A DNA stretch of 64,000 bases, taken from Candidatus Latescibacterota bacterium. Its GTDB lineage: Bacteria > Latescibacterota > UBA2968 > UBA8231. The notes below the pieces were generated by a model. That model worked only from the letters and a program-made list of their open reading frames with translations, did no database searches and was not told the origin of the DNA. The DNA lies in NCBI GenBank assembly GCA_965206595.1, contig OZ242214.1:992001-1056000 (forward strand). Reading direction: 5' to 3'. This document shows, piece after piece, positions 41,649 to 54,839 of the stretch. The position numbers and the translations under genes are program-made. Positions within the stretch are counted from its first letter, which is position 1. Each line of letters starts with the position of its first letter.

Positions 41649-42647
41649 CTATTTTGGAGGGATGGGCGGGGTCCCGGCAGGAATCCCCCTTGAGCACCCG
41701 GCCGGGTTCACCGCGGCGGCTTCGGTGATCTTGAGAGAGGGGACCGAGGTGTCGAGCTCGGCGCGGATCCCGACCGGAAGCACCAGGCGGCGAGGGAAAT
41801 GGCTGAACGGAAGGCCGGCGACGATGGGGAAATCGGTCCCCCGGGCATGCTCGAGGGCGAGCTCGGCCAGGGTCGGCGCTTCCTCCATCTCTTCGGCGGT
41901 GAAGCAGTCCCTGAACTGGCCGAACAGGAGCCCTCCCAGGCGCTCGAGGACACCGGCCAGGCGCAACTGGTTCAACATGCGGTCGATGCGGTAGGGGTAC
42001 TCGTCGATGTCCTCCAGGACGAGCAGGGCTCCCTCGAGCGGCGGGAAGAACGGGGTGCCGAGAAGACTGCACAGCAGGGCGAGATTGGCCGGCACCAGCG
42101 GTCCGCGCGCGGCCCCCGGACGCACCACACCCATGGACTCCGTGGCCTCGGGAACCGTCCCGAGCGGCTCAGGAGACGTCAACAGCGGCCAGAGCGAGGC
42201 CTCGACGAGGGGGTCCCGGCGCTCGCCGAGGTCGAAGTCGGCCAGGGCGCCGTTGAAGACCGCCAGCCGGGCGCGCGAGTAGAGCGCCAGCAGCAGGGCG
42301 GTGGAGTCGCTGAAGCCGGCGACGATCTTCGGGTCGTTGCGGACGGCCTCGTAATCGAGCCGGTCGAGCAGGCGCCCGCTGCCGTACCCTCCCCGGGCGC
42401 AGAGCACCGCCCTGATCTCCGGGTCGGCGAAGACGCGGTTGAGCTCGGCGGCGCGGGTTTCGTCCGTTCCCGCCAGGTAGTAATGCCGGTCGTGAATGTC
42501 GGGAGATACCTCCAGGCGGTAGCCGAGCTGCTCGAGGTAGGCCGCGGCCTCCAGAGGTCCGCGCTCGGAAGCGGGACGCGAGGGGGCCACCAAGGCCACG
42601 AGATCCCCCGGCTCGAGAACACCGGGGCGATTCAGGCCTGCGGACAT
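41649..42647 (-). CDS. ldcA: LD-carboxypeptidase (S66)
   Basis: ARGGYGS, GFSDST, LEDIDE, PFSH. Confidence 0.88.
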   Translation of the reverse strand: MSAGLNRPGVLEPGDLVALVAPSRPASERGPLEAAAYLEQLGYRLEVSPDIHDRHYYLAGTDETRAAELNRVFADPEIRAVLCARGGYGSGRLLDRLDYEAVRNDPKIVAGFSDSTALLLALYSRARLAVFNGALADFDLGERRDPLVEASLWPLLTSPEPLGTVPEATESMGVVRPGAARGPLVPANLALLCSLLGTPFFPPLEGALLVLEDIDEYPYRIDRMLNQLRLAGVLERLGGLLFGQFRDCFTAEEMEEAPTLAELALEHARGTDFPIVAGLPFSHFPRRLVLPVGIRAELDTSVPSLKITEAAAVNPAGCSRGIPAGTPPIPPK

Positions 42648-44074
42648 TTCCCGCTCCCCGCTCCCCGCCGTTTCAGCAGATCGACGAAGGACCGCTGCAC
42701 CCCGCCGAAGCCCCCGTTGCTCATGAAGACCACCAGGTCCCCGGCGGATGCCTCGGAGGCGAGCAGTCCGAGAATCTCTTCCTTCGACGGCGCGAAGCAG
42801 GCCTGTCGGCCTCCGCGGCTCAGCTCCGCGGCAAGACGTTCCGGAGAGAAGGGAGCATCCCCGCGCGCGCGCTCCGGACGCGGCACTGCGGCGAGGGTGA
42901 CGCGGTCCGCCGCGGCGAAGGCATGCAGGTAGCGCTTCTCGAAGACATTCCTCGCGTTGGTGGCGCTCGCCGGCTCGAACACTGCCCACAGACGGGCGGG
43001 GGAGTAGGCTTCCCGCAGGCCGAGCAAGGTCTGCTCGACCGCGGTCGGGTGATGGGCGAAATCGTCGATGACGGTGATGCCTCCGAACTCACCGAGCAGT
43101 TCCTGGCGGCGCCGTATTCCGGTGAATGAGGACAGTCCCTCGGCGATCGCCGCGGCCGGCACTTCGAGGTGGGCGGCCGCGGCCGCGGCTCCGAGGGCGT
43201 TGCGGAGATTGTGCTCGCCGCTCAGACCGATCTCGAAGCGGCCGAAAACGCGCTCCCCTTCCAGTATCGAGAACTGCTGCCGGCCTCGACCCTGCACTAC
43301 CTCGACGGCGCGCCAGCGGCAGGCGTCGCCCATGCCGAAGGTCTGCACCGGCGCCGGTGCCAGCGGCAGCAGCCGCGCGACCACAGGGTCGTCCCCGTTG
43401 GCCAGGATCAACCCGTTGCCCGGCACGGTGTTGAGGAGGTAGCGGAAGGCCCGTTCGATCTCGTCGAGGCTCGCGTACAGGTCGGCGTGGTCGTACTCGA
43501 TGTTGTTGACGAGAAGCAGCTCGGGGCGGTAGAAGAAGAACTTTGGGAACTTGGCGAAGAAGGCGCTGTCGTACTCGTCCCCCTCGATGACGAAGCAGCT
43601 TCCCGAACCCAGCCGGTACGGGCGCGGGAAGTCGCGGGGAATCCCGGCGACCAGGAAGGAAGGATCGAGACCTGCGGAGGCGAGCAGATGGGCTGTCATC
43701 GCCGTGGTCGTGGTCTTGCCGTGCGTACCGGTGACGACGACGGAACGTTTGGAAACCAGGAAGGCGTCCCGCAACAGTTCGGGCAGGCTCGTGTACGGGA
43801 TGCGGCGGTCGAGGGTGGCTTCGACCTCGGGATTGCCGCGCGACACGGCGTTTCCCACCACCACGAGGTCGGGAGCCGGATCCAGTCTGGCCGCGTCGAA
43901 CCCCTCGTACACGCCGACGCGGGCCTGCTCGAGGAAATCGCTCATCGGCGGATAGGTATGGGCGTCCGAGCCGGTCACCCGGCAGCCGCGCTCGGCGAGC
44001 ATTGCCGCAAGCGATCCCATGGCGGTGCCGCAAACCGCGATCAGGTGAACGTGTGCGCCGGGACGGGGTTGCAT
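42632..44074 (-). CDS. mpl: Murein peptide ligase Mpl
   Basis: CGTAMGSLA, GNAVSRGNPE, GTHGKTTT, EGDEYDSAFF, DDFAHHPTA. Confidence 0.92.
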   Translation of the reverse strand: MQPRPGAHVHLIAVCGTAMGSLAAMLAERGCRVTGSDAHTYPPMSDFLEQARVGVYEGFDAARLDPAPDLVVVGNAVSRGNPEVEATLDRRIPYTSLPELLRDAFLVSKRSVVVTGTHGKTTTTAMTAHLLASAGLDPSFLVAGIPRDFPRPYRLGSGSCFVIEGDEYDSAFFAKFPKFFFYRPELLLVNNIEYDHADLYASLDEIERAFRYLLNTVPGNGLILANGDDPVVARLLPLAPAPVQTFGMGDACRWRAVEVVQGRGRQQFSILEGERVFGRFEIGLSGEHNLRNALGAAAAAAHLEVPAAAIAEGLSSFTGIRRRQELLGEFGGITVIDDFAHHPTAVEQTLLGLREAYSPARLWAVFEPASATNARNVFEKRYLHAFAAADRVTLAAVPRPERARGDAPFSPERLAAELSRGGRQACFAPSKEEILGLLASEASAGDLVVFMSNGGFGGVQRSFVDLLKRRGAGSGKCPQA

Positions 44075-44341
44075 CGATCGGATTCGAAGTGCCGGGGGGA
44101 TCCGGTGGTGAGGCGGAGAGAGCGGCCGGAACGGTCCCAGGGAGAGCGGACGGATTGCCCCTGGACCGACTGTAAGTTTGATTTAAACATGAATTAGCGC
44201 AAGTGCCGCTAACTCGTTGTCTCCCAACGACTTACAGATTATATCTGAACAAGAGAGCACGGGTATATATTTGAGCACTTCAATCGATTGGGGCCGTTAA
44301 CCGGCTTTTTGCGTCACCCGCTAAGGATGGCTGGAAAGTAT

Positions 44342-44379
44342 AAAAAAAGCCCCCCGGAGGCGACTTCCGGGGGGCTTTT
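44342..44379. terminator. Bidirectional intrinsic terminator
   Basis: A7 tract, GC-rich hairpin GCCCCCCGGAG...TTCCGGGGGGC, then TTTT. Confidence 0.8.
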
Positions 44380-44399
44380 CTGTGAGGAGGATGTGCGGG

Positions 44400-44702
44400 T
44401 TACTGTGGAAAGACGCGGCGGATACGCTCGATTGGCTGTTCGCTTCTCATTTTGTTCCATACTTCCAAGGCAGTGTACGCGAAGCTGTCCAGCAGGAGAC
44501 GCAGACCGGCTTCCGAGGGAACCCATTCGATTTCTCCTGTAACCTCGAAAACCGATATAACATCCGCGGAGTCAAATTCTCCGACTTCCCTGTCAAATTC
44601 GGTTACAGGCTCCTGCCGTTTCAAATAGCTCGCGCTGCCCCTGGCTACTCCCGTTTGCAAGTTTGTCACATCCTGCCCGCGATAAATTGCGAAAGTTTTC
44701 AT
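44400..44702 (-). CDS. Hypothetical protein (100 aa)
   Basis: ATG with AGGAAG upstream, followed by the terminator. Confidence 0.6.
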   Translation of the reverse strand: MKTFAIYRGQDVTNLQTGVARGSASYLKRQEPVTEFDREVGEFDSADVISVFEVTGEIEWVPSEAGLRLLLDSFAYTALEVWNKMRSEQPIERIRRVFPQ

Positions 44703-44857
44703 ATCTACTTCCTTTCCCTGTTGGGGTTAAATGATGTCCTAAATATATAAATTTGTGCAAGCTACGTCAAGGACATAACCGGCTGTTTTTTTGTGGGTTA
44801 CGCTAATGGAGTAGATGCTATTTTTTACATGATATTTTAATAGTATGTCAGCCTGAT

Positions 44858-45319
44858 TTATGCTGGCTCCAGCAATCCGGAATGGCATGAATCGCACAGA
44901 TAAATAACCCGAATTTCCCGCTTCACTTTCGGACCTTTTCGGCGCCACACCTTCCGTCGCCAGGGAGGGCCGGTGATCGGAAACAGGCACTCTTCGCATT
45001 GCGCCCGCTTGAGGCAGTAATGGCCTTGTCTCCATTTTTCTTGCAAAACCGATTCCCAAAGCGTCAGAGCCGGCGTCCCCTTCTTCAAACCCTTGGCCTT
45101 CGAGACTGCCTTTTTAGCGGCTTTTTGCGGCCTTTTTTTAGCCGGCCTGGGGACTTTTCTCCTGGGGACTGGTATCGGCCTGGGGACTGGTATCGGCTCT
45201 GGTGCGGCCTGCTGGCAGGGTGCGGACTCTGGCTTTGGCGGCAAGGTCAACGGAAGATTGCTGGTCAGAAGCCATTCCGCGATTGGGATTTTCTTGACTT
45301 TTCCGGGCATGTTTTTCAT
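44858..45319 (-). CDS. Basic Pro/Lys-rich protein with CxxC...CxxC
   Basis: PIPVPR x2, KKAVSKAK, CEEC and CDSC. Confidence 0.5.
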   Translation of the reverse strand: MKNMPGKVKKIPIAEWLLTSNLPLTLPPKPESAPCQQAAPEPIPVPRPIPVPRRKVPRPAKKRPQKAAKKAVSKAKGLKKGTPALTLWESVLQEKWRQGHYCLKRAQCEECLFPITGPPWRRKVWRRKGPKVKREIRVIYLCDSCHSGLLEPA

Positions 45320-46176
45320 TGGTCATTTTTCCGTTCTTGCAAAAAAATCCCCGCCGGCGACCTGCCACGGGTGCCAACGAGGATTTAGGAGAAAGAAACA
45401 AACAGGCTCTCGGCCGTTTGTCTTTCGCCCTGCCATTATCGGAGTTCGCAGTTTTCGCAGAAAAAAAGCCCGATGGAAGAAGCTGGATTCTTCTTCCATC
45501 GGGCTGGCACGTCCTATGCGTCCATGGATGCTCGACCTTGAAAGGTGTCTTGGCGATCCATCCTGCCTCTGTTTCAAACATAAGCATTGCCTATGGATTG
45601 TGTCAAGAACATAAAATTTTCTTATGGACCGCCTTTTCCAGAAAATCCTCCGATAGTTGTTTGTGCAACCGGTGAGGAACTTCGCCTCGACCGCTTGCAC
45701 AACAGATTCAAGGCGAGCAGCAGGTCAGCGCTTTTATGTGTCCACAGTCTCACTTGGAGGCGCTGACAGCCAAAATCCCCGCTACAAGTGGAACCTGCCT
45801 TAACGGGGCCTATGCGTTGGAGGTTGGAGGACAACCTCTGAGGAGAATAGGAAGGGCAGGCAAGCAGATCGAAGCTTGAAGGTCTCCTCCATGCGCCAGC
45901 AGCGATCATTGCTGGCGTTGCGTCTCGGAGCCTCTAACAACTCATTGGCATGAAGAGGTAACTGAGTTACCGCAGAACTCCTTACGGACAGCGAGATTTT
46001 TTATTGTCTCGTGGCGTCCCCGTAGGGCGTTCTGCATCTGAAACATAACAATCTATTGGCATTTGTTGTTTATCAGGAAGAGATAAGAACCAATATAACT
46101 AGAAGTACCCCGCACGGCATGCTATTTTTTATCGTGCACATCATCGATTTAATCGATGATAGGGAGAAATCGAAGA

Positions 46177-46655
46177 TGAAAAAACAGGATTTAGAAATCG
46201 AAATCAGCGGAACAGTAGCGGGAAGGAAATTTACCGGACCAAAGATTTTCGAACGGTTGGCGGAGCGACTTAGACCGGGCGGCAGAGAAGAGGCACAGAA
46301 AGCTTTAACGGAAATTGCCCAAGACTTCACCCGGACAGAAGCGGAGCTATTCAGCAATCAAGGCAGGGTAGGTTCCCGCTCAGGTTGGAAGGGATTGAAA
46401 GCGAGCACAAAGAGACGCAAGGGCAATTCAATGATCCTGATCGACAAAGGACGTTTAAAGCGCAGCTTGACAGACGTAAACAGTCCAGACCATTACAGTC
46501 TTGTCACAATCTCCCGTCGTGGACTGGGATTGCACATTGGGACGAATGTCCCCTATTCGAGATTCGTGAACGCCAAACGAAAACTTATCGAGCCGACGAG
46601 GGAGAACGTCAAACGTTGGTCTCAGATGTTGGCTCGCATCTTCACCAAGAATTGA
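46177..46655 (+). CDS. Phage virion morphogenesis/tail-completion family protein (Mu gpG / P2 gpS-like); start approximate
   Basis: WKGLKASTKRRK..ILIDKGRLKRSL..IGTNVPYS. Confidence 0.7.
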
Positions 46656-46743
46656 GCCATCATCGATTAAATCGATGATGGGGACCCCTGCGCCAAAGTG
46701 ATTTTCATACCTATGGGAACGTGGATGGCCTTTCCCTTTCACC

Positions 46744-48348
46744 ATGAGTAAGACACCAGTTGCCGCCAATCGGCTCTACCAACACAAACACAAAACCGTC
46801 AAGCGTTTCGAGGCTATGGGCTCCCGTAGAGAGCCTTTGCAGCCTCTAACCTTCCGGGAGTTCGTCCAGACACTCCGCGTCCCTTCGTCACACCCCAGGC
46901 TGGCCGGAAAACCGCTACAATTTCAACGCTGGCAATGGGCCTTCCTTAATGACTTATACCGGACGGGGTTGCAAGAGGTTGGGTTAAGTGTGGCGCGAAA
47001 AAACGGAAAAAGCTCAATGCTGGCTGCCGCTCTATTGTGGCAACTACTTCACGGGCGCGAGAGTTGGCGTTGCCTGCTGACTTCAGACACTGGCGACCAC
47101 AGTGCAGAAGTTCGGCGCCATATGAAAGAGCTTGCGGAGGCAAGCGGCTATCTCGATGACGGGCCGGCAAGTGAACAGTTGCTTTCATTTCGCAGCGGTC
47201 CCCAGGCAGGCAAAGCTATTTCCAACCTGAATCAAGCGGAGGTTCATTTTCTCACTTCCGGCCCTACAGCCGGGCAAGCGGGCGGCGGCGATTGGGTCGT
47301 TGTAGATGAAGCGGGCCTACTTGGCGAGAATCAGCGGGAGTTGTGGAACAGCCTGTATCAAGCTGTCTCGGCCCGCTCGGGGCGCTTCATTGCCGTAGGT
47401 GTCCAAGGTCGCGGGCCGATGTTTGCAGAGCTTAAAAATCGCTCTACGGACTCGAAGAAGGTGGCCTTTCACTACTACGGAACAGACGGCGCAAACCTCG
47501 ATGACCGGGAAGCTTGGAAGGCTGCGAATCCCGGTTTGGGGAAAATCAAGAGCCTCGCCTACATGGAGGCTGCGAGCGAGAAAGCAAAAGCCTCTCAACT
47601 CGATGAAACAGACTTCCGTTTGTATGACTTAAACGAGCCTGTCGAAAAATCAGCGGAGCTAATTTGCAGCCTCTCAGACTGGCGAGTTTGTATTACGGAC
47701 TCCCTTCCCCCTCGGACAGGACGTTGCTTTTTCGGGTTCGACCTTGGCGGCAGCCGCTCGATGACGGCAGCCGCTGCCGTTTGGGAAAATGGACGGTGTG
47801 AGTTGTTCGCAGCCTTTCCAGACGAGCCCGACCTACTCGCAAGGGGGGATGCGGATAACGTCGGGAGGCTCTACGCGGCCGCACAGACAGCCGGGGAGTT
47901 GACGACCTATCCAGGGAAGCATTGTGACGCGGGCGCTTTCCTGCTGGACTGCATGGACGCTCTGCAAGGAGAGAGGATCGTTTGTGCGGGAGCGGATCGC
48001 TACCGACAAGCCGAAATTGAGAAGGTGTTGGAGGATTCGAAAATCCGGCTCCCCATAGTGTTTCGAGGGACCGGAGCGGGAGTAAAATCGGACGGCTCTT
48101 TCGATGTGCGAGCTTTCGATAAATGGGTGACGACTTCCAAGTTGAAACTCAAGGCGCACTTACTCGCAGCGCAGGCGATAACAGACTCCCGGATACGCTA
48201 CGATCAGGCCGGCAACCCTGCCCTGGACAAGAGCGGGAAAAATTCTCGAATTGACATTCTATCCGCCTTGTTAATGGCCGTTGGCCTATGCGAGAAACAC
48301 GGCGCCAAGGCCAGACAGCGCCGACCCCTGCGAGCGGAGGCAGTTTGA
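46744..48348 (+). CDS. terL: Terminase large subunit (HK97/cos-type)
   Basis: VARKNGKS Walker A, VVVDEAG Walker B, WKAANPGLG, GFDLG, RIDILSA. Confidence 0.9.
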   Translation: MSKTPVAANRLYQHKHKTVKRFEAMGSRREPLQPLTFREFVQTLRVPSSHPRLAGKPLQFQRWQWAFLNDLYRTGLQEVGLSVARKNGKSSMLAAALLWQLLHGRESWRCLLTSDTGDHSAEVRRHMKELAEASGYLDDGPASEQLLSFRSGPQAGKAISNLNQAEVHFLTSGPTAGQAGGGDWVVVDEAGLLGENQRELWNSLYQAVSARSGRFIAVGVQGRGPMFAELKNRSTDSKKVAFHYYGTDGANLDDREAWKAANPGLGKIKSLAYMEAASEKAKASQLDETDFRLYDLNEPVEKSAELICSLSDWRVCITDSLPPRTGRCFFGFDLGGSRSMTAAAAVWENGRCELFAAFPDEPDLLARGDADNVGRLYAAAQTAGELTTYPGKHCDAGAFLLDCMDALQGERIVCAGADRYRQAEIEKVLEDSKIRLPIVFRGTGAGVKSDGSFDVRAFDKWVTTSKLKLKAHLLAAQAITDSRIRYDQAGNPALDKSGKNSRIDILSALLMAVGLCEKHGAKARQRRPLRAEAV

Positions 48349-48746
48349 TTGCACCGGTGAAAAATTCAGTCTACAAAACCGCAAGGTGGCAACGGCTGCG
48401 GAAAGAGGTATTGAAGCGGGATGGCTACCGGTGCACGATTTGTTATCGAGCCGGGCGTCTGCACGTCCATCATCGGATTCCGGTTCCTTACAGGCTGACT
48501 CCTCCGATAATTGCAAAGGTGGTTTTCAACTTGGAAAATCTCCTGAGCGTTTGCGGAACTTGCCACAACGAATTACACGCTCGCATGAAGTCGGAGCCTC
48601 CCCCAGGTTGCAAACCATTTGCTCAATACGTCCAAAACCTAATGAAGGAAATTGAAAATGACAGCATTGCAGAAACTCCAAGTCAGTCAATCCGAACTAA
48701 GAGAAAAAGCGTCAACCCTGCTCGCCAAAGAGAATTTGTCTTCTGA
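48345..48746 (+). CDS. HNH endonuclease (HK97 gp74-like terminase partner)
   Basis: RWQRLRKEVLKRDGYRC..C..VHHRIP..NLLSVCGTCHN. Confidence 0.88.
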   Translation: MIAPVKNSVYKTARWQRLRKEVLKRDGYRCTICYRAGRLHVHHRIPVPYRLTPPIIAKVVFNLENLLSVCGTCHNELHARMKSEPPPGCKPFAQYVQNLMKEIENDSIAETPSQSIRTKRKSVNPARQREFVF

Positions 48747-49887
48747 CGAGAGAATCGAGCTTGACGGACACACCCGGCGACTTACCGAGCTTGAAACGGA
48801 ACTTCGGGCGGCGATTTTGCTTGACGAGACGGAAACGGCAACCGAAGGCGACAATAAGGCAAAGGAAAAGCAGGAGCTTGCCGGCAAATTAAAGCTTGGT
48901 CGTTACCTTGGCGCAGCCGCGACAGAAGAAAGGATTGCAGACGGTCCCGAAGCGGAATTTGCGCAAGAGGAAAAGCTTGAAAGTTTCCAAGTTCCTTTTG
49001 AGGCAATAGCTCCGCGTGAAACGGAGAAAAGGGTAGATGCCACTACCTCGGCGCCTTCGGACGTAGGACAGGACCAGGACCCTATCTTGAGGCGAGTTTT
49101 CGCGAGGGGCGCGGCATTGTGGTCTGGCGTTGTCTTTCCGTCTGTGGGCGTTGGCGAGAAACAATTTCCCGTTCTCAGTGCTGGAAATACTCCCGCCCTT
49201 ATTGCTAAGGATAGCTCGCACGATGCAACGGCGGCATCTTGGGAAGTCAAGGTTTTATCTCCCAAAAGAATGACGGCGCGATACACGCTCGCAATCGAAG
49301 ACGCAGCCGTTTTCGCAGGTATGGAAGCTGCTCTGAGAGAAGACTTGAGCGGCGCCATTGCTCAGGAAATTGACAAAGAGATTTTGGCGGGAGATGGAAC
49401 CGGACAACATGTAAGCGGATTTTTCGACCTAAGTTCCGGCCCCTTAACTGCGCCATCTGATCCAACAGCGGAAAGCGGAAGGCCTGACTACATCGAGGCC
49501 ATCGCCGGCAGTGTGGACGGCAAATACGCACTGGAAAATGGCGACGTGAAGCTTTTGATCGGTTCGGGAACAAACAAGCATATGGCGGCGAAGTTTGGCA
49601 GTGGCAACGCCAGCGATATGACCGCTCTGACACACGTCAAAGCGATTTCGGGGGGTTGTCGTGTCTCTGCTCACGTCCCGGCAGTAGCGACCAAGTTCCA
49701 GCTTGCCCTTGCCTGTCGGAAAATGGGTAGCGCCGTCGCTCCGGTTTGGAAAGCTGTCTCGTTGATACGCGATCCCTACAGCAATGCAGGTTCCGGTTTG
49801 GTCGCGCTGACGATGCACGTTCTGTGGGCATTCGACGTGCCACGACATAACGGTTGGAAGCTGCTTAAATTTCAGGTTCAATCGTAG
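48658..49887 (+). CDS. Major capsid protein, HK97 fold, with N-terminal coiled-coil scaffold
   Basis: Helical N-terminus; LSPKRMTA, LREDLSGAIAQEIDKEILAGDG, LIRDPYS. Confidence 0.82.
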   Translation: MTALQKLQVSQSELREKASTLLAKENLSSDERIELDGHTRRLTELETELRAAILLDETETATEGDNKAKEKQELAGKLKLGRYLGAAATEERIADGPEAEFAQEEKLESFQVPFEAIAPRETEKRVDATTSAPSDVGQDQDPILRRVFARGAALWSGVVFPSVGVGEKQFPVLSAGNTPALIAKDSSHDATAASWEVKVLSPKRMTARYTLAIEDAAVFAGMEAALREDLSGAIAQEIDKEILAGDGTGQHVSGFFDLSSGPLTAPSDPTAESGRPDYIEAIAGSVDGKYALENGDVKLLIGSGTNKHMAAKFGSGNASDMTALTHVKAISGGCRVSAHVPAVATKFQLALACRKMGSAVAPVWKAVSLIRDPYSNAGSGLVALTMHVLWAFDVPRHNGWKLLKFQVQS

Positions 49888-49890
49888 GCA

Positions 49891-50808
49891 GTGGAAACAC
49901 GGTTTACAGAGGTTCGCGCGGACGGGCGCCATTTATTCGGGACTGTCGTTAAGTATGGCGATACCGCCGTAGTCGGGGGGCAACCTGAACGGTTCGCCCC
50001 CGGCTCCCTTCTCTGCAATGACGTAATATTGAACCGCCAGCACGAGCGGGGCGTCCCATTAGCTCGCACTGGCGCTGGATTGCTTTTGCGAGATTCCCCG
50101 GAAAGCTTGCGAATGGAGGCGCTGTTGCCTCCGACAACTGAGGCAAGCGACACCCTAACCCTCGTTTCTTCGGGCGTCCTGCGCGGCCTTAGCGTCGAAT
50201 TTGAGGCCATATCGGAACATGATGAGGGAGGCACAAGGGTTATTGATATGGCGAACCTTTCTGGGCTGGCTGTATGCGATAGGCCAGCTTTCAAGGAATC
50301 GACAATAGAGGCACGGGCAAAGGGCAGGGCAATCTCGGGCAAAATCCCTTACAACCAGACGGAAACGATTGCCAACTCGGGAAGGGTGCGTAAATCCCGC
50401 ATTGCACCGGGCGCCTTTTCATATTCGATTGACGATGAGGAACAAGAGATTATCGCGCAGATTGGCACGGCGCCGTCTCAGATACTCGCTTCTAAAAAGG
50501 CGGGAAGTCTCAGACTCGCCGATTCCCCTACCTCGCTCGCCATCAACATCGATGATGTGATCGGAACCAGCTATGCGGATGACTTTCTGAAGCAAATGGC
50601 TTCAGGGCAATTTGCTTTAGGTGTTCGGCCTATGTATCGGACAGACGGCGTTGCGGATGCCTTCGAAGACATACCGGAACCCGGCAACCCAAGCGTTATG
50701 ATTCGAACCGTCCATAATGCGGTTTTGTATGCCGTCTCGTTCGTGCACCGAAAGCGTAAAGGCGATTCAAGCGCCGTAGAGCGACGGAGGAGGGCGCTAT
50801 GGCTGTAG
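49891..50808 (+). CDS. HK97-type prohead protease with tandem second domain
   Basis: ERFAPGS, NRQHE, PLART, LRGLSVEF, DRPAF; second repeat RIAPGAF..ILAS..GSLRL. Confidence 0.82.
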   Translation: METRFTEVRADGRHLFGTVVKYGDTAVVGGQPERFAPGSLLCNDVILNRQHERGVPLARTGAGLLLRDSPESLRMEALLPPTTEASDTLTLVSSGVLRGLSVEFEAISEHDEGGTRVIDMANLSGLAVCDRPAFKESTIEARAKGRAISGKIPYNQTETIANSGRVRKSRIAPGAFSYSIDDEEQEIIAQIGTAPSQILASKKAGSLRLADSPTSLAINIDDVIGTSYADDFLKQMASGQFALGVRPMYRTDGVADAFEDIPEPGNPSVMIRTVHNAVLYAVSFVHRKRKGDSSAVERRRRALWL

Positions 50809-51107
50809 ACGTGCAGAAGGTCGCCCTTGCCCTTCACATCATCACAGACACCACAGACACGCTTGAGGCAGCCATAAGCGAGCGATTGACGGACCTTTGC
50901 GAGGTAGCGGGTGCGGAAATACAGCGATACGCTCCCGGCGCACCCGAACCCATAAAGCGGGAGGCAGCGGTTAGGTATTGCAGCTATTTGTTCGACGTAG
51001 ACGGCAGCCAACACCCCAACTATTCAACCGCTTTTACCAACTCGGGAGCGAAGGGTTTGCTTTCAACCTGGCGCAAACATACCGCAAGCGTAATCGAAAA
51101 TGCCTGA
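50799..51107 (+). CDS. Head-tail connector (gp6-like)
   Basis: 102 aa helical; IQRYAPGAPEPIKREAAVRYCSYLFD..GAKGLLSTWR. Confidence 0.65.
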   Translation: MAVDVQKVALALHIITDTTDTLEAAISERLTDLCEVAGAEIQRYAPGAPEPIKREAAVRYCSYLFDVDGSQHPNYSTAFTNSGAKGLLSTWRKHTASVIENA

Positions 51108-51465
51108 TCTTGAAAAAGCTCGAAGGCACCGTCGAAAAACCTCCCTCAATGAAATTGTCGAACATGCGCCAACCGTAGAGGGTGAATACATCCCCCAGGG
51201 GTGGAAAAAAGTTTGGGCAAGGAAAGAACCGGAAAACCTCGAAGAGATAACCAGTTCTCGCTCTACCTTAAGCATTGAATCGGAAGAGGGTTTTGCGGTC
51301 TTCGTGGTTCGGTTCAATCCAAGATGGAAATTGAACGATTGGCTAAGGGAAAAGCTTACAGCCTACCGAATAAAGGAAATTGAGAACATAGACCGGAACC
51401 GCTGGCAGGTTTTGACGTGCAAGGAATCAGAAATACCATTGCCCCCCAAAATGAAGACCACTTGA
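51100..51465 (+). CDS. Head closure/head-tail adaptor (gp16-like)
   Basis: VWAR..FVVRF..YRIKEIENIDRNRWQVLTC; position after the connector. Confidence 0.6.
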   Translation: MPDLEKARRHRRKTSLNEIVEHAPTVEGEYIPQGWKKVWARKEPENLEEITSSRSTLSIESEEGFAVFVVRFNPRWKLNDWLREKLTAYRIKEIENIDRNRWQVLTCKESEIPLPPKMKTT

Positions 51466-51468
51466 AAA

Positions 51469-52548
51469 ATGTGGCCTTTCACCGGTAAAAAAACAGAGAA
51501 GCGGTCTACCGAGGTAGACGGCTATACCAATATCCTACTCAACAACATCGAATCTCAGGCAGACAGCGACGACGCTGGCCTTGTGCGTGGTGTGGCTGCA
51601 CTCGAGACGGCGGTGGGATTATGGCGACGTGCCTTCGCAAGTGCCAGCGTGGAGCCTGCTACACCCCTTACAAGGGCACTGACCCCGGAGTTTCTCGGAT
51701 GGCTCGCTCAGGAGTTGGTTCTACGTGGCGAAGGGTTGGCAGTGATCCAAGTCGAGCGGGGCCGGCTGGACCTTCTCCCGGTAGGTTCCTTCGCGGTAAC
51801 GGGGAGTGCTAGCCGGCGGAGCTGGCGCTATCGGTGCACGGTATACGGACCCTCTTCGACCTTCACCTATCAGCGGGCGCCAGCGGGGCAAGTCATTCAC
51901 TGCCGATGGAGCTATCAAGCAGAATTGCCCGAGTTTGGCGCTTCCCCGTGGAGAAGGGCGCACATTTCTTCAACCCTACTTGGCAACCTTGAGAAGCGTT
52001 TGAGCGAAGAGACGGGCGGAATTGTGGGGAATTTACTGCCGCTGCCGAGCGATCCAGCGGTGGCAGCGGTAGACGGGGAAGAGGTTGACGCATACGAGGG
52101 TTTGCGAAAGACCCTGAAGACGCTCAAAGGCAAGACTGCCCTTGTCGAGACGACAAGCGGCGGCTACGGGGAAGGAATGAACACGGCCCCTCGTAAGGAT
52201 TATCAGCCGGTTCGACTTGGCGCGAACCCTCCCCAGTCATTGCGGGAGTTGAGGGAGGATGTTGCACACTCATTGCTGCAATGTTGCGGGGTGCCCTTGG
52301 GGTTGGTCAGTGAAAGAGGCGACGGGGCAAGTAGAAGAGAATGTTGGCGCCAGTTTCTGCACTCTTCCATAGCGCCACAAGCGAAAATCGTCGAACACGA
52401 ATTGAGCGAGAAATTGGAGACGAAAATCTCGTTGAACTTCGACAAGTTGTTTGCCAGCGACATTATGGGCAAGGCGAGGGCAGCCGCGTCACTGGCAAAG
52501 GCCGGCATCGAGATTGACGAGGCGCTGCGAATGGCGGGATTGGAGTAG
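51469..52548 (+). CDS. Portal protein
   Basis: MWPF..EKRS, ELVLRGEGLAVI, VIHCR, GASP, CGVPLGL, ELSEKL. Confidence 0.8.
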   Translation: MWPFTGKKTEKRSTEVDGYTNILLNNIESQADSDDAGLVRGVAALETAVGLWRRAFASASVEPATPLTRALTPEFLGWLAQELVLRGEGLAVIQVERGRLDLLPVGSFAVTGSASRRSWRYRCTVYGPSSTFTYQRAPAGQVIHCRWSYQAELPEFGASPWRRAHISSTLLGNLEKRLSEETGGIVGNLLPLPSDPAVAAVDGEEVDAYEGLRKTLKTLKGKTALVETTSGGYGEGMNTAPRKDYQPVRLGANPPQSLRELREDVAHSLLQCCGVPLGLVSERGDGASRRECWRQFLHSSIAPQAKIVEHELSEKLETKISLNFDKLFASDIMGKARAAASLAKAGIEIDEALRMAGLE

Positions 52549-52588
52549 CCAGGAGGCGAAGGTCGAGGGTCCTTCGTCCTGCGGGCGG

Positions 52589-52624
52589 AGGCAGGGCACT
52601 TTGGGCCAAGTGCCCTGCCTTTTC
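52589..52624 (+). terminator. Intrinsic terminator of head operon
   Basis: AGGCAGGGCACTT-N6-AAGTGCCCTGCCT followed by TTTC. Confidence 0.7.
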
Positions 52625-52702
52625 ATTGCGGGGTGAAGCCTTTTAATGGTCGGGCTCACTCCGCCCTGGAGCCGTTGCCGGACATCCCGGTAGCGGCTCT
52701 TT

Positions 52703-53653
52703 TTATTGCTGCCCGTAGCGGTATTTGGCGACTGCGCCCCTTGCGGCAAGTTGCCCCTTGGCGTAATGGGCAGGCATCATTGGTGATTCCCATCGCCCGC
52801 AAACCATCATCTCGACAAGGCTGGCGCCGTTCTCCGCCAGACTCTGAGTAGCCCCAACTCGGAGCGAATGTCCCGAGAATCTCCCCTCGAAGCCTGCCTC
52901 CTCACATCTTTTTTTCACGATTGCCCGAACCGCCATAGGGGTCAGCCCCTTGGAACCTACTGTCTCAGTGGGGGGGCTGTCGGGATTCCGCTTTTTGCGG
53001 TTCACGAAAACTCTACGGAAGACTGCCCCCTCAGTGATCTTCGCAGCTTCCATCCATGCCTTGAGGCGCGTAACCGTAGGCACCCCAATGAACATGGACG
53101 GTTTTTTCTTCCCTGTCTGATCCGTTTTCGAATGGCGAATTGTCAGTAGGGCGGAGCCGTTGGGCTGGAATATCAAGTCGTCAACCTGAAGGGCGACCAC
53201 CTCCCCTGAGCGCAGTAGGGCGTCGCTTGCCACACCGAGAAGCGCAGCATCCCGGAGCCCCGGCAGGCTGCCGTCAGCCGCCAGAGTAGCCAGAACGTCA
53301 ACTTCCCCCCATTGCAGCCCCTCCACTTGCCCCCGGCCCATACCACGACCCTTGCGGCGAATTCCGGCAATCGTTCTTTCTGTGAGGGGACCGACAGGAC
53401 AAGGCTCCCCCGTCAGACGGGCTCGGAACCTCACAGCATTAATGGTAATGTTCAGGGTTCCGGGGGCTATTCCGGCTCGGAATCTCCTATCCAGATAATG
53501 GGCAAGACTATGATCGGTAATCTCTCCCATCTCTTTTTCCAAGCTCAACAGGGCTTGTTTGTAGGTTCTCCGGCTGCCGGGGGACAGCCCCTCCGCGATG
53601 AGTTCGCGAACGCCAAGGGAGACCGCCGAATGTGCCGCGACAAGGTCTTTCAT
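52703..53653 (-). CDS. Tyrosine recombinase, Cre-like subgroup
   Basis: RDAALL..LLRSGE, HSKTDQ, SGHSLRVGATQSL, GRWESPMMPAHY. Confidence 0.9.
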   Translation of the reverse strand: MKDLVAAHSAVSLGVRELIAEGLSPGSRRTYKQALLSLEKEMGEITDHSLAHYLDRRFRAGIAPGTLNITINAVRFRARLTGEPCPVGPLTERTIAGIRRKGRGMGRGQVEGLQWGEVDVLATLAADGSLPGLRDAALLGVASDALLRSGEVVALQVDDLIFQPNGSALLTIRHSKTDQTGKKKPSMFIGVPTVTRLKAWMEAAKITEGAVFRRVFVNRKKRNPDSPPTETVGSKGLTPMAVRAIVKKRCEEAGFEGRFSGHSLRVGATQSLAENGASLVEMMVCGRWESPMMPAHYAKGQLAARGAVAKYRYGQQ

Positions 53654-53843
53654 AAGATTCCCCTCTTTGACACTCTGAAACTTTAGTATGTAAGATTTAT
53701 ATGCTAAAGTTTTATGATACTTCAAAAAAGCGTGTTTTCCCTCTGGAATCACTAAAGAGAAATTTCGGTTCAAACATGAATTTACGCAAGTGCGGAAAAG
53801 GCGGCGGCGGCGGAAACCCGGTGCCGAACAGGAAGGTCGGTAG

Positions 53844-54839
53844 ATGAGCCCGGAAGAGGCCGGCACGGCGCCGGAAATCTCGGTCGTGATCCCCGTTTAC
53901 AATGAGCGCGAGAGCCTGCCGGCGCTGTGCCAGAAGCTGAACGCGGCCCTCGACCGCATTGCGCGGGCGTCGGAGATCGTCTTTGTCGACGACGGCAGCA
54001 GCGACGGCTCGTTCGACCTCATCGGGGAGCTCAGCGGCCGCTACCCGCGGATCCGCGCCCTGGGCTTCCGGCGCAACTACCGCAAGGCCGCGGCCCTGGC
54101 GGCCGGTTTCAAGGCCGCCCGGGGGGACGTCATCGTCACCATGGACGCCGACCTCCAGGACGACCCGGACGAGATCGAACACCTTCTGGACGCCCTCGAC
54201 GGCGACAAGGACCTCGTCACCGGCTGGAAGAAGAAACGCCTGGACCCGCTGAGTAAAACCCTGCCTTCGCGGCTTTTCAATCTCGTCACCTCGATGGTCG
54301 CCGGCATCAGGCTGCACGATTTCAACTGCGGCCTGAAGGCGTACCGCCGCGAGGTGGCCGAGGACTCCCTGCCCTACCTGTACGGGGAGCTTTACCGCTA
54401 CCTGCCCGCCATCGCCCACTGGAGCGGCTACCGCGTCGGCGAAATCCCGGTGCGCCATCACCGCCGCATGTACGGGGAGTCGAAGTTCGGAAGCAGGCGG
54501 CTGCTCAACGGTTTCCTCGATCTGCTCTCGATCACCTTCGTGGTCCGCTTCATGACCACGCCCATGCACGTGTTCGGAAGCCTCGGACTCGCGGCCACGG
54601 CCGCGGGCGCCCTGATCGGCTGCTACATCACCTACCTGTGGGCGGAGACCGGCACCATACAGCACCGGCTGCCGCTGCTGCTTCTCGGGCTCCTGCTGAT
54701 CATCGTCGGAGTGCAACTGTTCTCCACGGGACTGCTCGGCGACATGGTGGCGAGCATGCACCAGCGGGAGGGGCGCACGCCGCGGATCAGCCGCCGCCTG
54801 GATGGTGACGGGGCAACCCCCGTAGAGGATGCGGAGTGA
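53844..54839 (+). CDS. Glycosyltransferase family 2 (ArnC/DPM1-like)
   Basis: SVVIPVYNE, VDDGSSDG, MDADLQDDP, two C-terminal TM helices. Confidence 0.9.
   Translation: MSPEEAGTAPEISVVIPVYNERESLPALCQKLNAALDRIARASEIVFVDDGSSDGSFDLIGELSGRYPRIRALGFRRNYRKAAALAAGFKAARGDVIVTMDADLQDDPDEIEHLLDALDGDKDLVTGWKKKRLDPLSKTLPSRLFNLVTSMVAGIRLHDFNCGLKAYRREVAEDSLPYLYGELYRYLPAIAHWSGYRVGEIPVRHHRRMYGESKFGSRRLLNGFLDLLSITFVVRFMTTPMHVFGSLGLAATAAGALIGCYITYLWAETGTIQHRLPLLLLGLLLIIVGVQLFSTGLLGDMVASMHQREGRTPRISRRLDGDGATPVEDAE

What the first reader, a model, noticed from the sequence alone, without database searches (positions are those of the whole stretch)
44182..53793. Minimal head-only satellite: ~9.6-kb integrated element with an HK97 head module but no tail, lysis or replication genes
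Seen: direct-repeat boundaries and the order tail-completion gene, TerL, HNH, capsid, protease, connector, closure, portal, then a convergent recombinase. The head ORFs are uninterrupted and tightly coupled. Known: cf-PICIs make tail-less capsids and hijack helper tails, but typically also carry alpA, primase and terS, with the terminase after the head genes. Inference: the permuted order (TerL first, portal last), Cre-like recombinase and absence of PICI core genes suggest a distinct satellite family rather than a decayed prophage, since both att-like ends are retained.
Basis: partly seen in the sequence, partly recalled or inferred. Interest (0 to 1): 0.88.

Follow-up and report, generated by a model that had tools for sequence, protein, structure and literature searches.

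The report
Ten-kilobase head-only phage satellite candidate
A 9.6-kb mobile element in an uncultured Latescibacterota bacterium carries the genes to build and fill a small virus head, but none recognisable for a tail, for bursting the cell or for copying itself, so it most likely spreads by borrowing tails from another phage.

Summary
Window 44174-53793 is a low-GC island (0.49-0.60 against 0.67-0.71) bounded by a 33-nt imperfect direct repeat. It lies between mpl and a GT2 gene. A same-genus genome (G002) has these two genes 192 bp apart with one hybrid att copy, which is a true empty site.

Gene order is Neck1-like, TerL, HNH, HK97-fold capsid, S78 protease, adaptor-like, head completion, portal, then a convergent Cre-like integrase. 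No tail, lysis, replication, TerS or regulator gene was recognised. Only two orphan ORFs (100 and 153 aa) and about 0.8 kb of non-coding DNA remain unassigned.

It is not a lone wreck. The order TerL-HNH-capsid-protease-portal recurs in elements of about 10-12 kb in G002, in IMG/VR proviruses, and in G156. In G156 it forms stand-alone 22-kb contigs of about 2.1 tandem 10.5-kb units, beside contigs of a tailed phage. Capsid and portal show purifying selection (dN/dS about 0.1).

The best reading (0.6) is a capsid-forming, tail-borrowing satellite. It is analogous to cf-PICI and MulchRoom but from a separate lineage, in a new phylum, and below the 11.6-kb floor of isolated tailed phages. Helper dependence is inferred, not shown. 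No tailed prophage marker was found in the host genome.

The parts
44174..44206 (.). attL: left copy of the 33-nt imperfect direct repeat. The identical 11-nt core is at 44185-44195.
   Evidence: 27 of 33 identical to 53761-53793; the left flank plus the left part of the repeat aligns to the G002 empty site; contigs of runs X1 and X3 break at 44166-44195.
44400..44702 (-). orf100, an orphan ORF of unknown function, followed by a strong hairpin terminator at 44343-44381 (-).
   Evidence: ORF. (terminator with a 16-pair stem; promoter-like site 44770-44742). No family in Pfam, PHROGs or NCBIfam. The Atlas gave no usable hit.
44858..45319 (-). orf153, an orphan ORF. It is proline-rich and basic in the middle, with Cys-x2-Cys motifs at the C-terminal end (my reading: zinc-ribbon-like). 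It is a candidate DNA-binding protein (regulator or packaging specificity); this role is inferred.
   Evidence: No family found. Only 2 proteins at E<=0.001 among 1.84 billion representatives, one of them at 72% identity. Best Atlas score 0.86, with no named family.
45467..45505 (-). Strong intrinsic-terminator hairpin in the roughly 0.8-kb non-coding stretch (about 45330-46130), with a promoter-like site at 45606-45577 (-). It may mark a small RNA of about 100 nt or a leader.
   Evidence: 16-pair stem plus T run. (121-nt fold of -49.3 kcal/mol, z = -4.6, driven mostly by the hairpin). No Rfam match at gathering score.
46140..46160 (.). Distal copy of an element-specific perfect palindrome (10-1-10), just upstream of the Neck1-like gene.
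   Evidence: The motif occurs only at these two places in the 7.05-Mb genome.
46176..46655 (+). Neck1 / tail-completion-like protein (159 aa), first gene of the + strand operon.
   Evidence: phrog_26 'tail completion or Neck1' at E 1.9e-10 and phrog_222 at 8.8e-6. Weak Pfam matches to HK97-gp10_like (0.028) and Phage_tail_S (0.019). Only one other cluster in the 5.8-billion-protein set (62% identity, on a 13,445-bp contig).
46657..46681 (.). Proximal copy of the palindrome (12-1-12), 63 nt upstream of the TerL start. It is a candidate operator or packaging-recognition site (inferred).
   Evidence: The G002 element has its own, different 22-nt palindrome, also in two copies upstream of TerL (L009 12880 and 13514).
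46744..48348 (+). Large terminase TerL (534 aa).
   Evidence: phrog_9 at E 1.4e-46 and PF20441 TerL_nuclease at 3.5e-8. At most 26% identity to TerL of cultured phages.
48357..48746 (+). HNH endonuclease, the packaging-associated type. An upstream ATG at 48288 is also possible.
   Evidence: phrog_119 at E 4.9e-17 and 19 further families, 17 of them also annotated as HNH endonuclease. PF01844 at 0.0042, below its cut-off. The start was chosen by comparison with the G002 homologue.
48658..49887 (+). HK97-fold major capsid protein with an N-terminal helical (delta-like) domain.
   Evidence: PF05065 at 24.4 bits against a cut-off of 24.2. AlphaFold model from 68 sequences, pLDDT 77.8. Foldseek top hits are all HK97-fold capsids (8gta at E 7.5e-13; RcGTA, HK97, cf-PICI EcCI2 9gyi_B at 1.6e-10). 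The profile against PDB gives 8gta at E 4.8e-4.
49891..50808 (+). Prohead serine protease (S78) with a C-terminal domain of about 160 aa.
   Evidence: PF04586 at E 1.4e-14. TIGR01543 at 8.6e-13. phrog_2263 at 9.4e-24, and phrog_36211 on residues 155-296.
50799..51107 (+). Head-tail adaptor-like protein of 102 aa, assigned by position and weak evidence only.
   Evidence: No family at E<=5 for the window protein. Its L013 homologue hits phrog_442 'head-tail adaptor' at E 0.03. It is conserved in G002 at 77%. It forms the N-terminus of an 870-aa ORF in G156.
51100..51465 (+). Head completion / head closure protein (121 aa).
   Evidence: PF05521 Phage_HCP at E 4.7e-5, 24.3 bits against a cut-off of 25.
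51469..52548 (+). Portal protein (359 aa), last gene of the operon. A hairpin terminator follows at 52668-52700.
   Evidence: PF04860 at E 8.6e-12, 45.3 bits against a cut-off of 39.1. phrog_12. Terminator.
52703..53653 (-). Cre-like tyrosine recombinase (integrase), convergent with the head operon.
   Evidence: PF00589 at E 4.9e-12. Best solved relatives are Cre recombinase entries at E 5.4e-12 over residues 60-309.
53761..53793 (.). attR: right copy of the repeat. The identical 11-nt core is at 53772-53782.
   Evidence: Contigs of X1 and X3 break at 53772-53801.

Best explanation
The region is an integrative, capsid-forming phage satellite of 9,587 bp.

Integration. It sits in the mpl-GT2 intergenic attB, placed there by its Cre-like tyrosine recombinase, with crossover inside the 11-nt identical core. 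The att sites and the empty site are shown. Catalysis by the recombinase is inferred.

Head assembly. One + strand operon (46176-52548) supplies what a small HK97-type head needs. These are a capsid protein with a delta-like domain, the S78 protease and the portal, TerL with HNH for cos-type unit-length packaging, and adaptor, head-completion and Neck1-like proteins to finish the portal vertex. The gene identities are shown. Assembly of a small head (about T=4 for 10 kb) is inferred.

Dependence. The element has no recognisable tail, lysis, replication, TerS or repressor gene. It must therefore depend on a tailed phage for tails and lysis, and on the helper or host for replication (inferred). 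Packaging or regulatory specificity may rest on the paired element-specific palindromes upstream of TerL and on the orphan zinc-ribbon-like orf153 (speculative).
For: Mobility:
- G002 has an empty site with a hybrid att.
- G001 holds a remnant at the same site: an integrase 5' fragment plus attR, 76% nucleotide identity over 809 columns.
- Contigs of runs X1 and X3 end and begin at the edges of the 11-nt core (44166-44195 and 53772-53801). This fits an unoccupied allele in the same sample (inference).

Gene content.

Nothing else fits in the element. Only orf100, orf153 and about 0.8 kb of non-coding DNA are unassigned.

Functional constraint: dN/dS against G002 is 0.10 for the capsid, 0.11 for the portal and 0.24 for the adaptor (dS is near saturation).

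Conserved family:
- The same gene order occurs in a roughly 10.1-10.6-kb element at a different site in G002.
- It also occurs in IMG/VR loci L013-L016.
- In G156, contigs C12 and C9 are about 2.1 tandem units of 10.4-10.5 kb. No host flank was seen in the first 20,000 bases examined of each.
- 35 of 101 capsid relatives and 14 of 58 portal relatives have a longest contig of 8-14 kb.

Tailed phages nearby in relatives:
- In G041 the mini-element lies beside a complete prophage that has its own TerL, portal, protease and tape measure.
- G156 is one of only 2 of 76 family genomes with a tape-measure match over the Pfam cut-off. The match lies on separate phage contigs.

Precedent: cf-PICI and MulchRoom are satellites that encode the head and packaging machinery and take tails from a helper (passages).
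Against: - No helper was identified for this copy. In the 7.05-Mb host genome PF10145, PF03237, PF04984 and PF04865 gave 0 matches. PF05065 and PF04860 matched only this element.
- No TerS, excisionase, repressor or replication gene was recognised, so induction, replication and cos recognition are unexplained.
- No circle junction or skip joint across the element appeared in the contigs laid.
- The lineage also includes decayed copies (G149 twice, G019, G001, and the host's second TerL-HNH island).
- The G156 relatives have an endolysin and a long variable protein and no integrase. The lineage is therefore not uniformly 'head-only' and may include self-sufficient members.
- The adaptor assignment is weak.
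Confidence: 0.6

Rival explanations
1. Inert remnant: a prophage that has lost its tail, lysis and replication modules and is decaying in place, with no present means of transfer.
For: - Decayed relatives exist. In G149 the capsid gene has 3 in-frame stops and only fragments of TerL survive.
- G019 has a truncated TerL beside an IS630-like gene, at host-like GC.
- G001 holds a remnant of about 0.8 kb.
- The host's second locus keeps only TerL and HNH.
- No helper markers were found in the host genome.
Against: - All eight head and packaging ORFs and the integrase are intact.
- dN/dS is about 0.1 on capsid and portal.
- The same content and size of about 10 kb recur at 23-81% protein identity in different genomes and sites. 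Independent decay would not produce this.
- Both att sites are intact, and the empty site is known.
- Relatives occur as stand-alone tandem contigs.
Confidence: 0.1
2. Autonomous minimal virus: the lineage consists of self-sufficient phages of about 10 kb with no tail or a minimal one, and the window copy is a temperate member that needs no helper.
For: - The G156 units (10.4-10.5 kb) carry a GH108 endolysin (PF05838 at E 8.5e-13; phrog_315).
- They also carry an 870-aa ORF whose first roughly 110 residues align with the adaptor. The rest is only 60-62% identical between variants whose TerL regions (about 97% nucleotide identity) and capsid-protease regions (about 94.5%) are far more alike. 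They have no integrase.
- L013 has an 855-aa cadherin-like protein in the module.
- No helper was seen in the host genome.
Against: - The window copy has no endolysin, no long fibre-like ORF and no replication gene. Its unassigned coding capacity is 253 aa.
- It encodes separate adaptor, head-completion and Neck1-like proteins, the set that joins a head to a long tail.
- G156 itself holds tailed-phage contigs.
Confidence: 0.12
3. Domesticated gene-transfer-agent-like head cluster kept by the host, with tail functions encoded elsewhere.
For: - G019 carries TerL-capsid-protease-portal at host-like GC (GC3 0.82-0.92).
- The RcGTA capsid is among the best fold matches (6tb9, E 1.1e-11).
Against: - The window copy has foreign GC, its own integrase and att sites, and is absent from the same site in a congener.
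- No tape-measure, sheath or baseplate family was found anywhere in the genome.
- The element is patchily distributed: 7 of 168 genomes of the phylum, all in one family.
Confidence: 0.05

Closest known systems
Capsid-forming PICIs (cf-PICI, e.g. EcCIEDL933, KpCIDSM30104)
   Same: - Both are integrated islands with an integrase and a full HK97-type head and packaging set: capsid, protease, portal, head-tail joining proteins, HNH and TerL.
- Neither has tail or holin genes.
- cf-PICIs make their own small capsids and take only tails from phages (passages).
- The capsid fold matches the solved cf-PICI EcCI2 capsid at E 1.6e-10, no better than it matches ordinary phages.
   Different: - No AlpA-type regulator, primase-replicase or TerS was recognised.
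- The gene order here is TerL-HNH-capsid-protease-adaptor-closure-portal. Proteobacterial cf-PICIs are described as capsid-protease-portal-connectors followed by hnh-terS-terL.
- The recombinase is Cre-like.
- The host phylum is Latescibacterota, whereas cf-PICIs were reported in Proteobacteria and Firmicutes.
- No sequence-level link was found. Capsid and portal have no tblastn match in 50,697 phage records.
Streptomyces satellites MulchRoom and MiniFlayer
   Same: - They encode capsid-formation and packaging genes and lack any primase or replicase.
- MulchRoom has a lysogeny module and a helper-length tail.
- MiniFlayer lacks integration and has short fibres (passages). This resembles the contrast between the window copy and the G156 units.
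   Different: - They are reported with direct terminal repeats, virulent helpers and GC matching the helper.
- Their sequences were not on hand, so homology was not tested.
- No helper or virion data exist here.
Satellite phage P4
   Same: A small integrative element (11.6 kb according to the passage) that is packaged in a small T=4 head and uses a helper's tail.
   Different: P4 uses the helper's capsid protein and terminase and has its own primase (recalled). The element here encodes its own head and terminase and has no recognisable replicase.
'Twilight-zone' mini HK97 genomes (<11.6 kb) from metagenomes
   Same: Same size class. That study counts 4730 putatively complete genomes below the 11.6-kb floor of isolated HK97-fold viruses and suggests that some are satellites (abstract and passages).
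   Different: The group highlighted there lacks portal and tail genes and has encapsulin-like capsid proteins. This lineage has a portal, TerL and HNH. I could not see whether the lineage is in that paper's data, because supplements are closed.
RcGTA-type gene transfer agents
   Same: A small HK97-fold head. The capsid fold match is 6tb9 at E 1.1e-11.
   Different: By my recall, GTAs have tail genes in the cluster, no integrase or att sites, host-like composition, and package host DNA. The window element has an integrase, att sites and foreign GC.

Membership tests
cf-PICI (SatelliteFinder definition, 11 core components) | Integrase | tested here: met
   PF00589 at E 4.9e-12; Cre-like by PDB search.
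cf-PICI (SatelliteFinder definition, 11 core components) | Transcriptional regulator (AlpA / MerR / Stl type) | tested here: not met
   orf100, orf153 and the smaller ORFs have no Pfam, PHROGs or NCBIfam match. An unrecognisable regulator cannot be excluded.
cf-PICI (SatelliteFinder definition, 11 core components) | Primase-replicase | tested here: not met
   No such domain was found in any ORF of 44207-53760. A distant relative, L014, does carry an AAA_25 RepA-like helicase.
cf-PICI (SatelliteFinder definition, 11 core components) | Small terminase TerS | tested here: not met
   No TerS family match. The only 'terminase small subunit' PHROG hit (phrog_4581) falls on the HNH domain of the HNH protein.
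cf-PICI (SatelliteFinder definition, 11 core components) | TerL, HNH, capsid, prohead protease, portal | tested here: met
cf-PICI (SatelliteFinder definition, 11 core components) | [quoted passage not shown] | tested here: inconclusive
   Head completion PF05521 at E 4.7e-5, just under its cut-off. The adaptor is assigned by position, with one weak hit on a homologue (phrog_442, E 0.03).
cf-PICI (SatelliteFinder definition, 11 core components) | No tail or holin genes (forbidden components) | tested here: met
   No tail tube, tape-measure, baseplate, fibre, holin or endolysin family was found. Caveat: the Neck1/tail-completion-like gene (phrog_26) could count as tail-associated.
cf-PICI (SatelliteFinder definition, 11 core components) | Detected by the SatelliteFinder cfPICI model; left module shared with PICIs | not tested
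   SatelliteFinder and its profiles are not among the tools. The supplementary model tables of PMC10085698 are closed.
cf-PICI (SatelliteFinder definition, 11 core components) | Helper-induced life cycle, with own small capsids joined to helper tails | not testable with these tools
   This needs induction, electron microscopy and transduction experiments. The only circumstantial support is co-occurrence with tailed phages in relatives.
Complete HK97-like temperate phage | Tail, lysis and replication/lysogeny-control modules beside the head module | tested here: not met
   The element is 9,587 bp. Every ORF of 80 aa or more was scanned, and none belongs to these modules.
RcGTA-like gene transfer agent | Host-resident cluster without integrase or att sites, host-like composition, tail genes in or with the cluster | tested here: not met
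   Integrase and att sites are present, GC is foreign, and no tail families occur in the genome.
MulchRoom/MiniFlayer-type satellite viruses | Capsid and packaging genes present, primase/replicase absent | tested here: met
   The definition comes from passages.
MulchRoom/MiniFlayer-type satellite viruses | Sequence homology to those satellites, direct terminal repeats, virulent helper | not tested
   Their sequences were not fetched. The ends of the packaged form are unknown.

The most novel reading that the evidence does not exclude
This lineage would hold the smallest portal-bearing HK97 elements known (9.6-10.5 kb, below the 11.6-kb floor of isolated tailed phages). It would span a continuum from self-sufficient to parasitic forms.

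The G156-type members would be free mini-phages. Their head-tail adaptor is fused to a fast-evolving receptor-binding fibre, so the particle infects without a conventional tail. The window copy would be an integrative derivative that swapped the fibre for head-closure and Neck1 proteins in order to pirate long tails.

Packaging would run without any TerS. Recognition would rest on paired element-specific palindromes upstream of TerL, read by an orphan zinc-ribbon protein.
Probability: 0.12. Interest if true: 0.85.

Novelty: new variant of a known kind. Interest (0 to 1): 0.62.

Why it matters
Capsid-forming satellites have so far been described in Proteobacteria, Firmicutes and Actinobacteria. 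This would extend the strategy to an uncultured candidate phylum, through a lineage with no detectable sequence link to the known ones. That supports the view that tail piracy evolved repeatedly.

At 9.6 kb, with about a dozen genes, it is close to a minimal parts list for building, filling and closing an HK97 head. It does so without a recognisable TerS or replicase. That makes it a compact test system for what is really needed for cos-type packaging and for setting the size of small capsids.

The relatives include an integrated head-only form, a free 10.5-kb form with an endolysin and an adaptor-fibre fusion, and forms with a helicase. They offer a natural series for asking how phages turn into satellites, or the reverse. 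The series lies in the '<11.6 kb' size range where no tailed phage has been isolated.

Tried and rejected
- Metagenome-contig scans with the portal (A2) and capsid (A1) alignments found no relative.
- The AlphaFold model from A3 was poor (pLDDT 40.9) and was not searched. It was replaced by a 68-sequence alignment.
- Sequence searches of PDB found nothing meaningful for the Neck1-like protein (0 hits), for the capsid as a single sequence, for the G156 870-aa ORF, or for the adaptor profile.
- The protein Atlas gave no usable lead for orf100 or orf153.
- Rfam gave three matches, all below their gathering scores.
- tblastn of capsid and portal against 50,697 phage records gave no match.
- Reads: only Logan contigs of one sample were on hand. 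No joint that skips the element and no circle junction was listed.
- Contig depth was lower over the element (about 5-20) than over the flanks (about 17-25) in all three runs. The tool warns that such depth is not a copy number or a share of cells, so I do not use it.
- Considered and dropped: a tRNA target (no tRNA in the window), and a resident helper at the host's second TerL locus. That locus is an IS-disrupted island with TerL and HNH only, a DnaB-like ORF and a P4-type integrase-like ORF (the last two names are my reading of the N-terminal sequences and were not tested).
- The Phanie paper is not held. I saw only its title, in a reference list.
The SatelliteFinder component tables and the genome lists of the twilight-zone study may bear on membership and novelty.
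- Literature searches for prior description. One search ('Latescibacter' + 'satellite' + 'capsid') returned 0 papers.

Full report
WHAT IS THERE

The window drops from GC 0.67-0.71 to 0.49-0.60 between about 44.1 and 53.9 kb. The island is bounded by a 33-nt direct repeat, 44174-44206 and 53761-53793. The copies match at 27 of 33 positions and lie 9,587 bp apart. Taken alone such a repeat is not remarkable. Its meaning comes from comparison with relatives.

In the window the island separates a Mur-ligase gene (mpl-like, 42632-44074, minus strand) from a family-2 glycosyltransferase gene (53844-54839, plus strand). In G002, a genome of the same genus, the orthologues (89% and 91% identical) are 192 bp apart. 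The spacer there holds a single copy of the repeat. That copy follows attL on its left and attR on its right. This is an empty site, and it fixes the element ends inside the repeat, around the 11-nt identical core AAACATGAATT.

A third genome of the genus, G001, has a 1.2-kb insert at the same place. About 0.8 kb of it is a diverged remnant consisting of an integrase 5' fragment plus attR. It shows 76% nucleotide identity to window 53109-53902. The site has therefore been used by this kind of element more than once, or over a long period.

GENE CONTENT

Pfam matched 6 of the 10 ORFs submitted, and PHROGs also matched 6 of 10. NCBIfam and relaxed scans add detail.

The plus-strand operon reads:
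- Neck1/tail-completion-like protein (phrog_26, E 1.9e-10)
- TerL (phrog_9, E 1.4e-46)
- HNH endonuclease (phrog_119, E 4.9e-17)
- major capsid protein (PF05065, just over its cut-off)
- S78 prohead protease (E 1.4e-14)
- a 102-aa protein in the adaptor position, with no significant match
- head completion protein (PF05521, E 4.7e-5, just under its cut-off)
- portal (PF04860, E 8.6e-12)

A hairpin terminator at 52668-52700 closes the operon. It is shared with the convergent tyrosine recombinase at 52703-53653, whose best solved relatives are Cre recombinase entries (E 5e-12).

The capsid assignment was checked by structure. A model built from 68 relatives (pLDDT 77.8) matches HK97-fold capsids only. 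Examples are 8gta at E 7.5e-13, T5, RcGTA, HK97 and the cf-PICI EcCI2 capsid at 1.6e-10. The N-terminal 100 or so residues are helical, like a delta or scaffolding domain.

The left arm (44207-46130) holds two minus-strand orphan ORFs, orf100 and orf153, each followed by a strong terminator, plus about 0.8 kb without a convincing ORF. Neither orphan matches any family. orf153 has one close relative among 1.84 billion representatives.

No tail, lysis, replication, TerS, excisionase or repressor gene was recognised. The unassigned coding capacity is 253 aa.

A perfect palindrome of 21-25 nt occurs twice, flanking the Neck1-like gene. The proximal copy lies 63 nt before the TerL start. The motif occurs nowhere else in the 7.05-Mb genome.

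IS IT A WRECK OR A WORKING DESIGN?

The host genome has one other TerL (40% identity). It lies in an IS-disrupted island that keeps only TerL and HNH.

Across relatives the capsid was found in 4 of 41 genomes. With a profile it was found in 7 of 168 genomes of the phylum, all within one family (6 of 75 there, not counting the host).

- G002 carries the same module at a different site: TerL 38%, HNH 48%, capsid 74%, protease 55%, adaptor 77%, closure 40%, portal 81% and a convergent integrase at 47%. It sits in a low-GC island of about 10.1-10.6 kb. It has its own pair of 22-nt palindromes upstream of TerL. It has no Neck1-like gene and no homologue of either orphan ORF.
- dN/dS between the two elements is 0.10 for the capsid, 0.11 for the portal and 0.24 for the adaptor. 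dS is close to saturation.
- IMG/VR loci L013-L016 repeat the order TerL-HNH-(variable gene)-capsid-protease-(adaptor)-portal at 23-44% identity. They come from records of 7.7, 11.0 and 12.3 kb and from one 50.8-kb provirus.
- In that provirus (G041) the mini-module occupies about 39.6-50.3 kb. It lies beside a complete prophage that has its own TerL, portal, S49-type protease, tape measure and baseplate-like proteins in the usual order.
- Decayed copies also exist: two in G149, one of them with stops in the capsid gene, and G019, which is GC-ameliorated with a truncated TerL next to an IS630-like gene. The matches in G013 and G141 are fragments that I did not examine further.

FREE FORMS

In G156 (same family) the module lies on small stand-alone contigs.
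- C12 is 21,965 bp; the first 20,000 were examined. It consists of head-to-tail copies 10,424-10,505 bp apart, at 99.98-100% identity.
- C9 is 22,004 bp; 20,000 were examined. It is a variant about 95% identical, with units 10,292-10,417 bp apart.
- C6 is 8,345 bp and is a third variant.
- No host flank and no integrase are present.

Such contigs are what long-read assemblers give for small circles or concatemers. Either way the DNA exists free of the chromosome.

The unit adds three things to the head module:
- a GH108 endolysin
- a 349-aa variable protein
- an 870-aa ORF whose first roughly 110 residues align with the adaptor. The rest contains repeats and is only 60-62% identical between variants that are otherwise about 95% alike.

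The protein databases hold 58 portal and 101 capsid clusters of this lineage. Their longest contigs pile up at 8-14 kb (14 of 58 and 35 of 101) and again at 18-30 kb (7 of 58 and 23 of 101). I could not fetch those contigs.

HELPER

The host genome gave no match to tape measure (PF10145), Terminase_6N, sheath or Baseplate_J. Its only HK97 capsid and portal matches are this element. A helper, if there is one, therefore comes from outside.

Among 76 genomes of the family, 5 had a tape-measure match at E<=0.001 and 2 were over the Pfam cut-off. One of those two is G156. There the gene lies on two phage contigs (28.4 and 23.4 kb) that also encode a capsid protein and an adaptor of their own.

Together with G041, this gives two settings in which a relative of the element keeps company with a complete tailed phage. 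That is suggestive. It is not a test, because related genomes are not independent samples.

POPULATION EVIDENCE

Three runs of one sample hold the element, as Logan contigs only.

In runs X1 and X3 the contigs stop and restart with 30-nt overlaps at 44166-44195 and 53772-53801. These positions are the last base before attL departs from attR, and the first base after attR departs from attL. The two repeat copies share no 30-mer. I therefore read these breaks as graph branches caused by an unoccupied attB allele in the same sample. This is an inference, because the alternative path was not displayed.

In run X2 the contigs cross both ends unbroken. No circle junction was seen.

HOW IT MOST LIKELY WORKS

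Shown:
- a site-specific integrative element
- a complete, constrained HK97 head and packaging module
- no room for tail, lysis or replication modules
- a conserved design of about 10 kb
- free tandem or circular forms in relatives

Inferred:
- After derepression the Cre-like recombinase excises a 9.6-kb circle.
- Host or helper functions copy it into concatemers.
- The operon builds small procapsids. A capacity of about 10 kb corresponds to T=4 in the passage read.
- TerL with HNH cuts and packages unit lengths.
- Adaptor, closure and Neck1-like proteins prepare the portal vertex for a long tail supplied by a co-infecting phage, which also lyses the cell.

Speculative: the paired palindromes and orf153 replace TerS in recognition, or act as the switch.

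COMPARISON WITH WHAT IS KNOWN

By function this is what cf-PICIs do and what MulchRoom appears to do.

By membership it fails three of the eleven cf-PICI core components (regulator, primase-replicase, TerS), and two more are uncertain. Its gene order differs from the orders described for cf-PICIs. It has no detectable sequence link to cultured phages beyond a TerL at about 25% identity.

cf-PICIs are reported to have arisen three times independently. A further independent origin in Latescibacterota is the economical reading.

The size falls in the 'mini genome' class below 11.6 kb. The group highlighted in that study lacks portals, so it is not the same thing.

I found no description of this lineage in searches. 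Supplements and subscription journals were not visible.

VERDICT

Satellite status is probable but unproven. I rate it a new variant of a known kind.

Noticed in passing
window 46140-46160 and 46657-46681; L009 12880-12901 and 13514-13535: Both the window element and the G002 element carry two copies of their own perfect palindrome of about 22-25 nt, 519-634 bp apart. In each, the proximal copy lies upstream of TerL (63 nt before its start in the window). The sequences differ between the elements but the layout is the same. In the window the pair brackets the Neck1-like gene, which G002 lacks.
   Followed up: partly
window 45455-45610 (- strand): A promoter-like site (45606-45577) is followed by a terminator with a 16-pair stem (45505-45467) in a stretch without a convincing ORF. 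This may be a small RNA of about 100 nt. There is no Rfam family for it.
   Followed up: partly
G000:C1 about 4,735,000-4,760,000 (L004/L005): The host genome has a second low-GC island with a 40%-identical TerL and an HNH gene separated by an IS630-like transposase ORF. It also has a DnaB-like ORF, a 1314-aa ORF and an integrase-like ORF. The IS, DnaB and integrase names are my reading of the N-terminal sequences and were not tested with HMMs. No capsid or portal was detected there.
   Followed up: partly
L031 (G001:C10 832161-833394): At the same mpl-GT2 site, G001 has a remnant of about 0.8 kb of a related element (integrase 5' fragment plus attR). It also has an unrelated short insert next to mpl, with a small ORF and a hairpin.
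   Followed up: partly
L052 5773-8385 (G156:C12), also L053 and L054: An 870-aa ORF whose N-terminus aligns with the head-tail adaptor. The remainder has repeated 'LTQAQVDAR'-type motifs and diverges to 60-62% identity between element variants that are otherwise about 95% identical. It looks like a fast-evolving fibre fused to the adaptor. No family or PDB match was found.
   Followed up: partly
L013 1829-4396: An 855-aa protein with three cadherin-like beta-sandwich domains sits between HNH and the capsid gene in an IMG/VR relative. Its C-terminal part resembles the 349-aa variable ORF at the same position in G156.
   Followed up: no
L010 6893-12178 (G019): TerL (N-terminally truncated), capsid, a short protease and portal of this lineage at host-like GC (GC3 0.82-0.92). 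The set lies directly after an IS630-like ORF and has no HNH, adaptor or integrase hit. It may be an old, ameliorated or domesticated copy.
   Followed up: no
window 55110-58553: A 1147-aa SNF2/helicase protein with a C-terminal NOV_C domain lies just downstream of the GT2 gene, in a stretch of somewhat lower GC (0.60-0.65). It was not examined further.
   Followed up: no
window 49891-50808: The 305-aa protease has two parts. Relatives L013, G019 and G156 match only the N-terminal S78 part. L014, L015 and G041 match only the C-terminal part (residues about 125-299), in a gene at the same position after the capsid gene.
   Followed up: no
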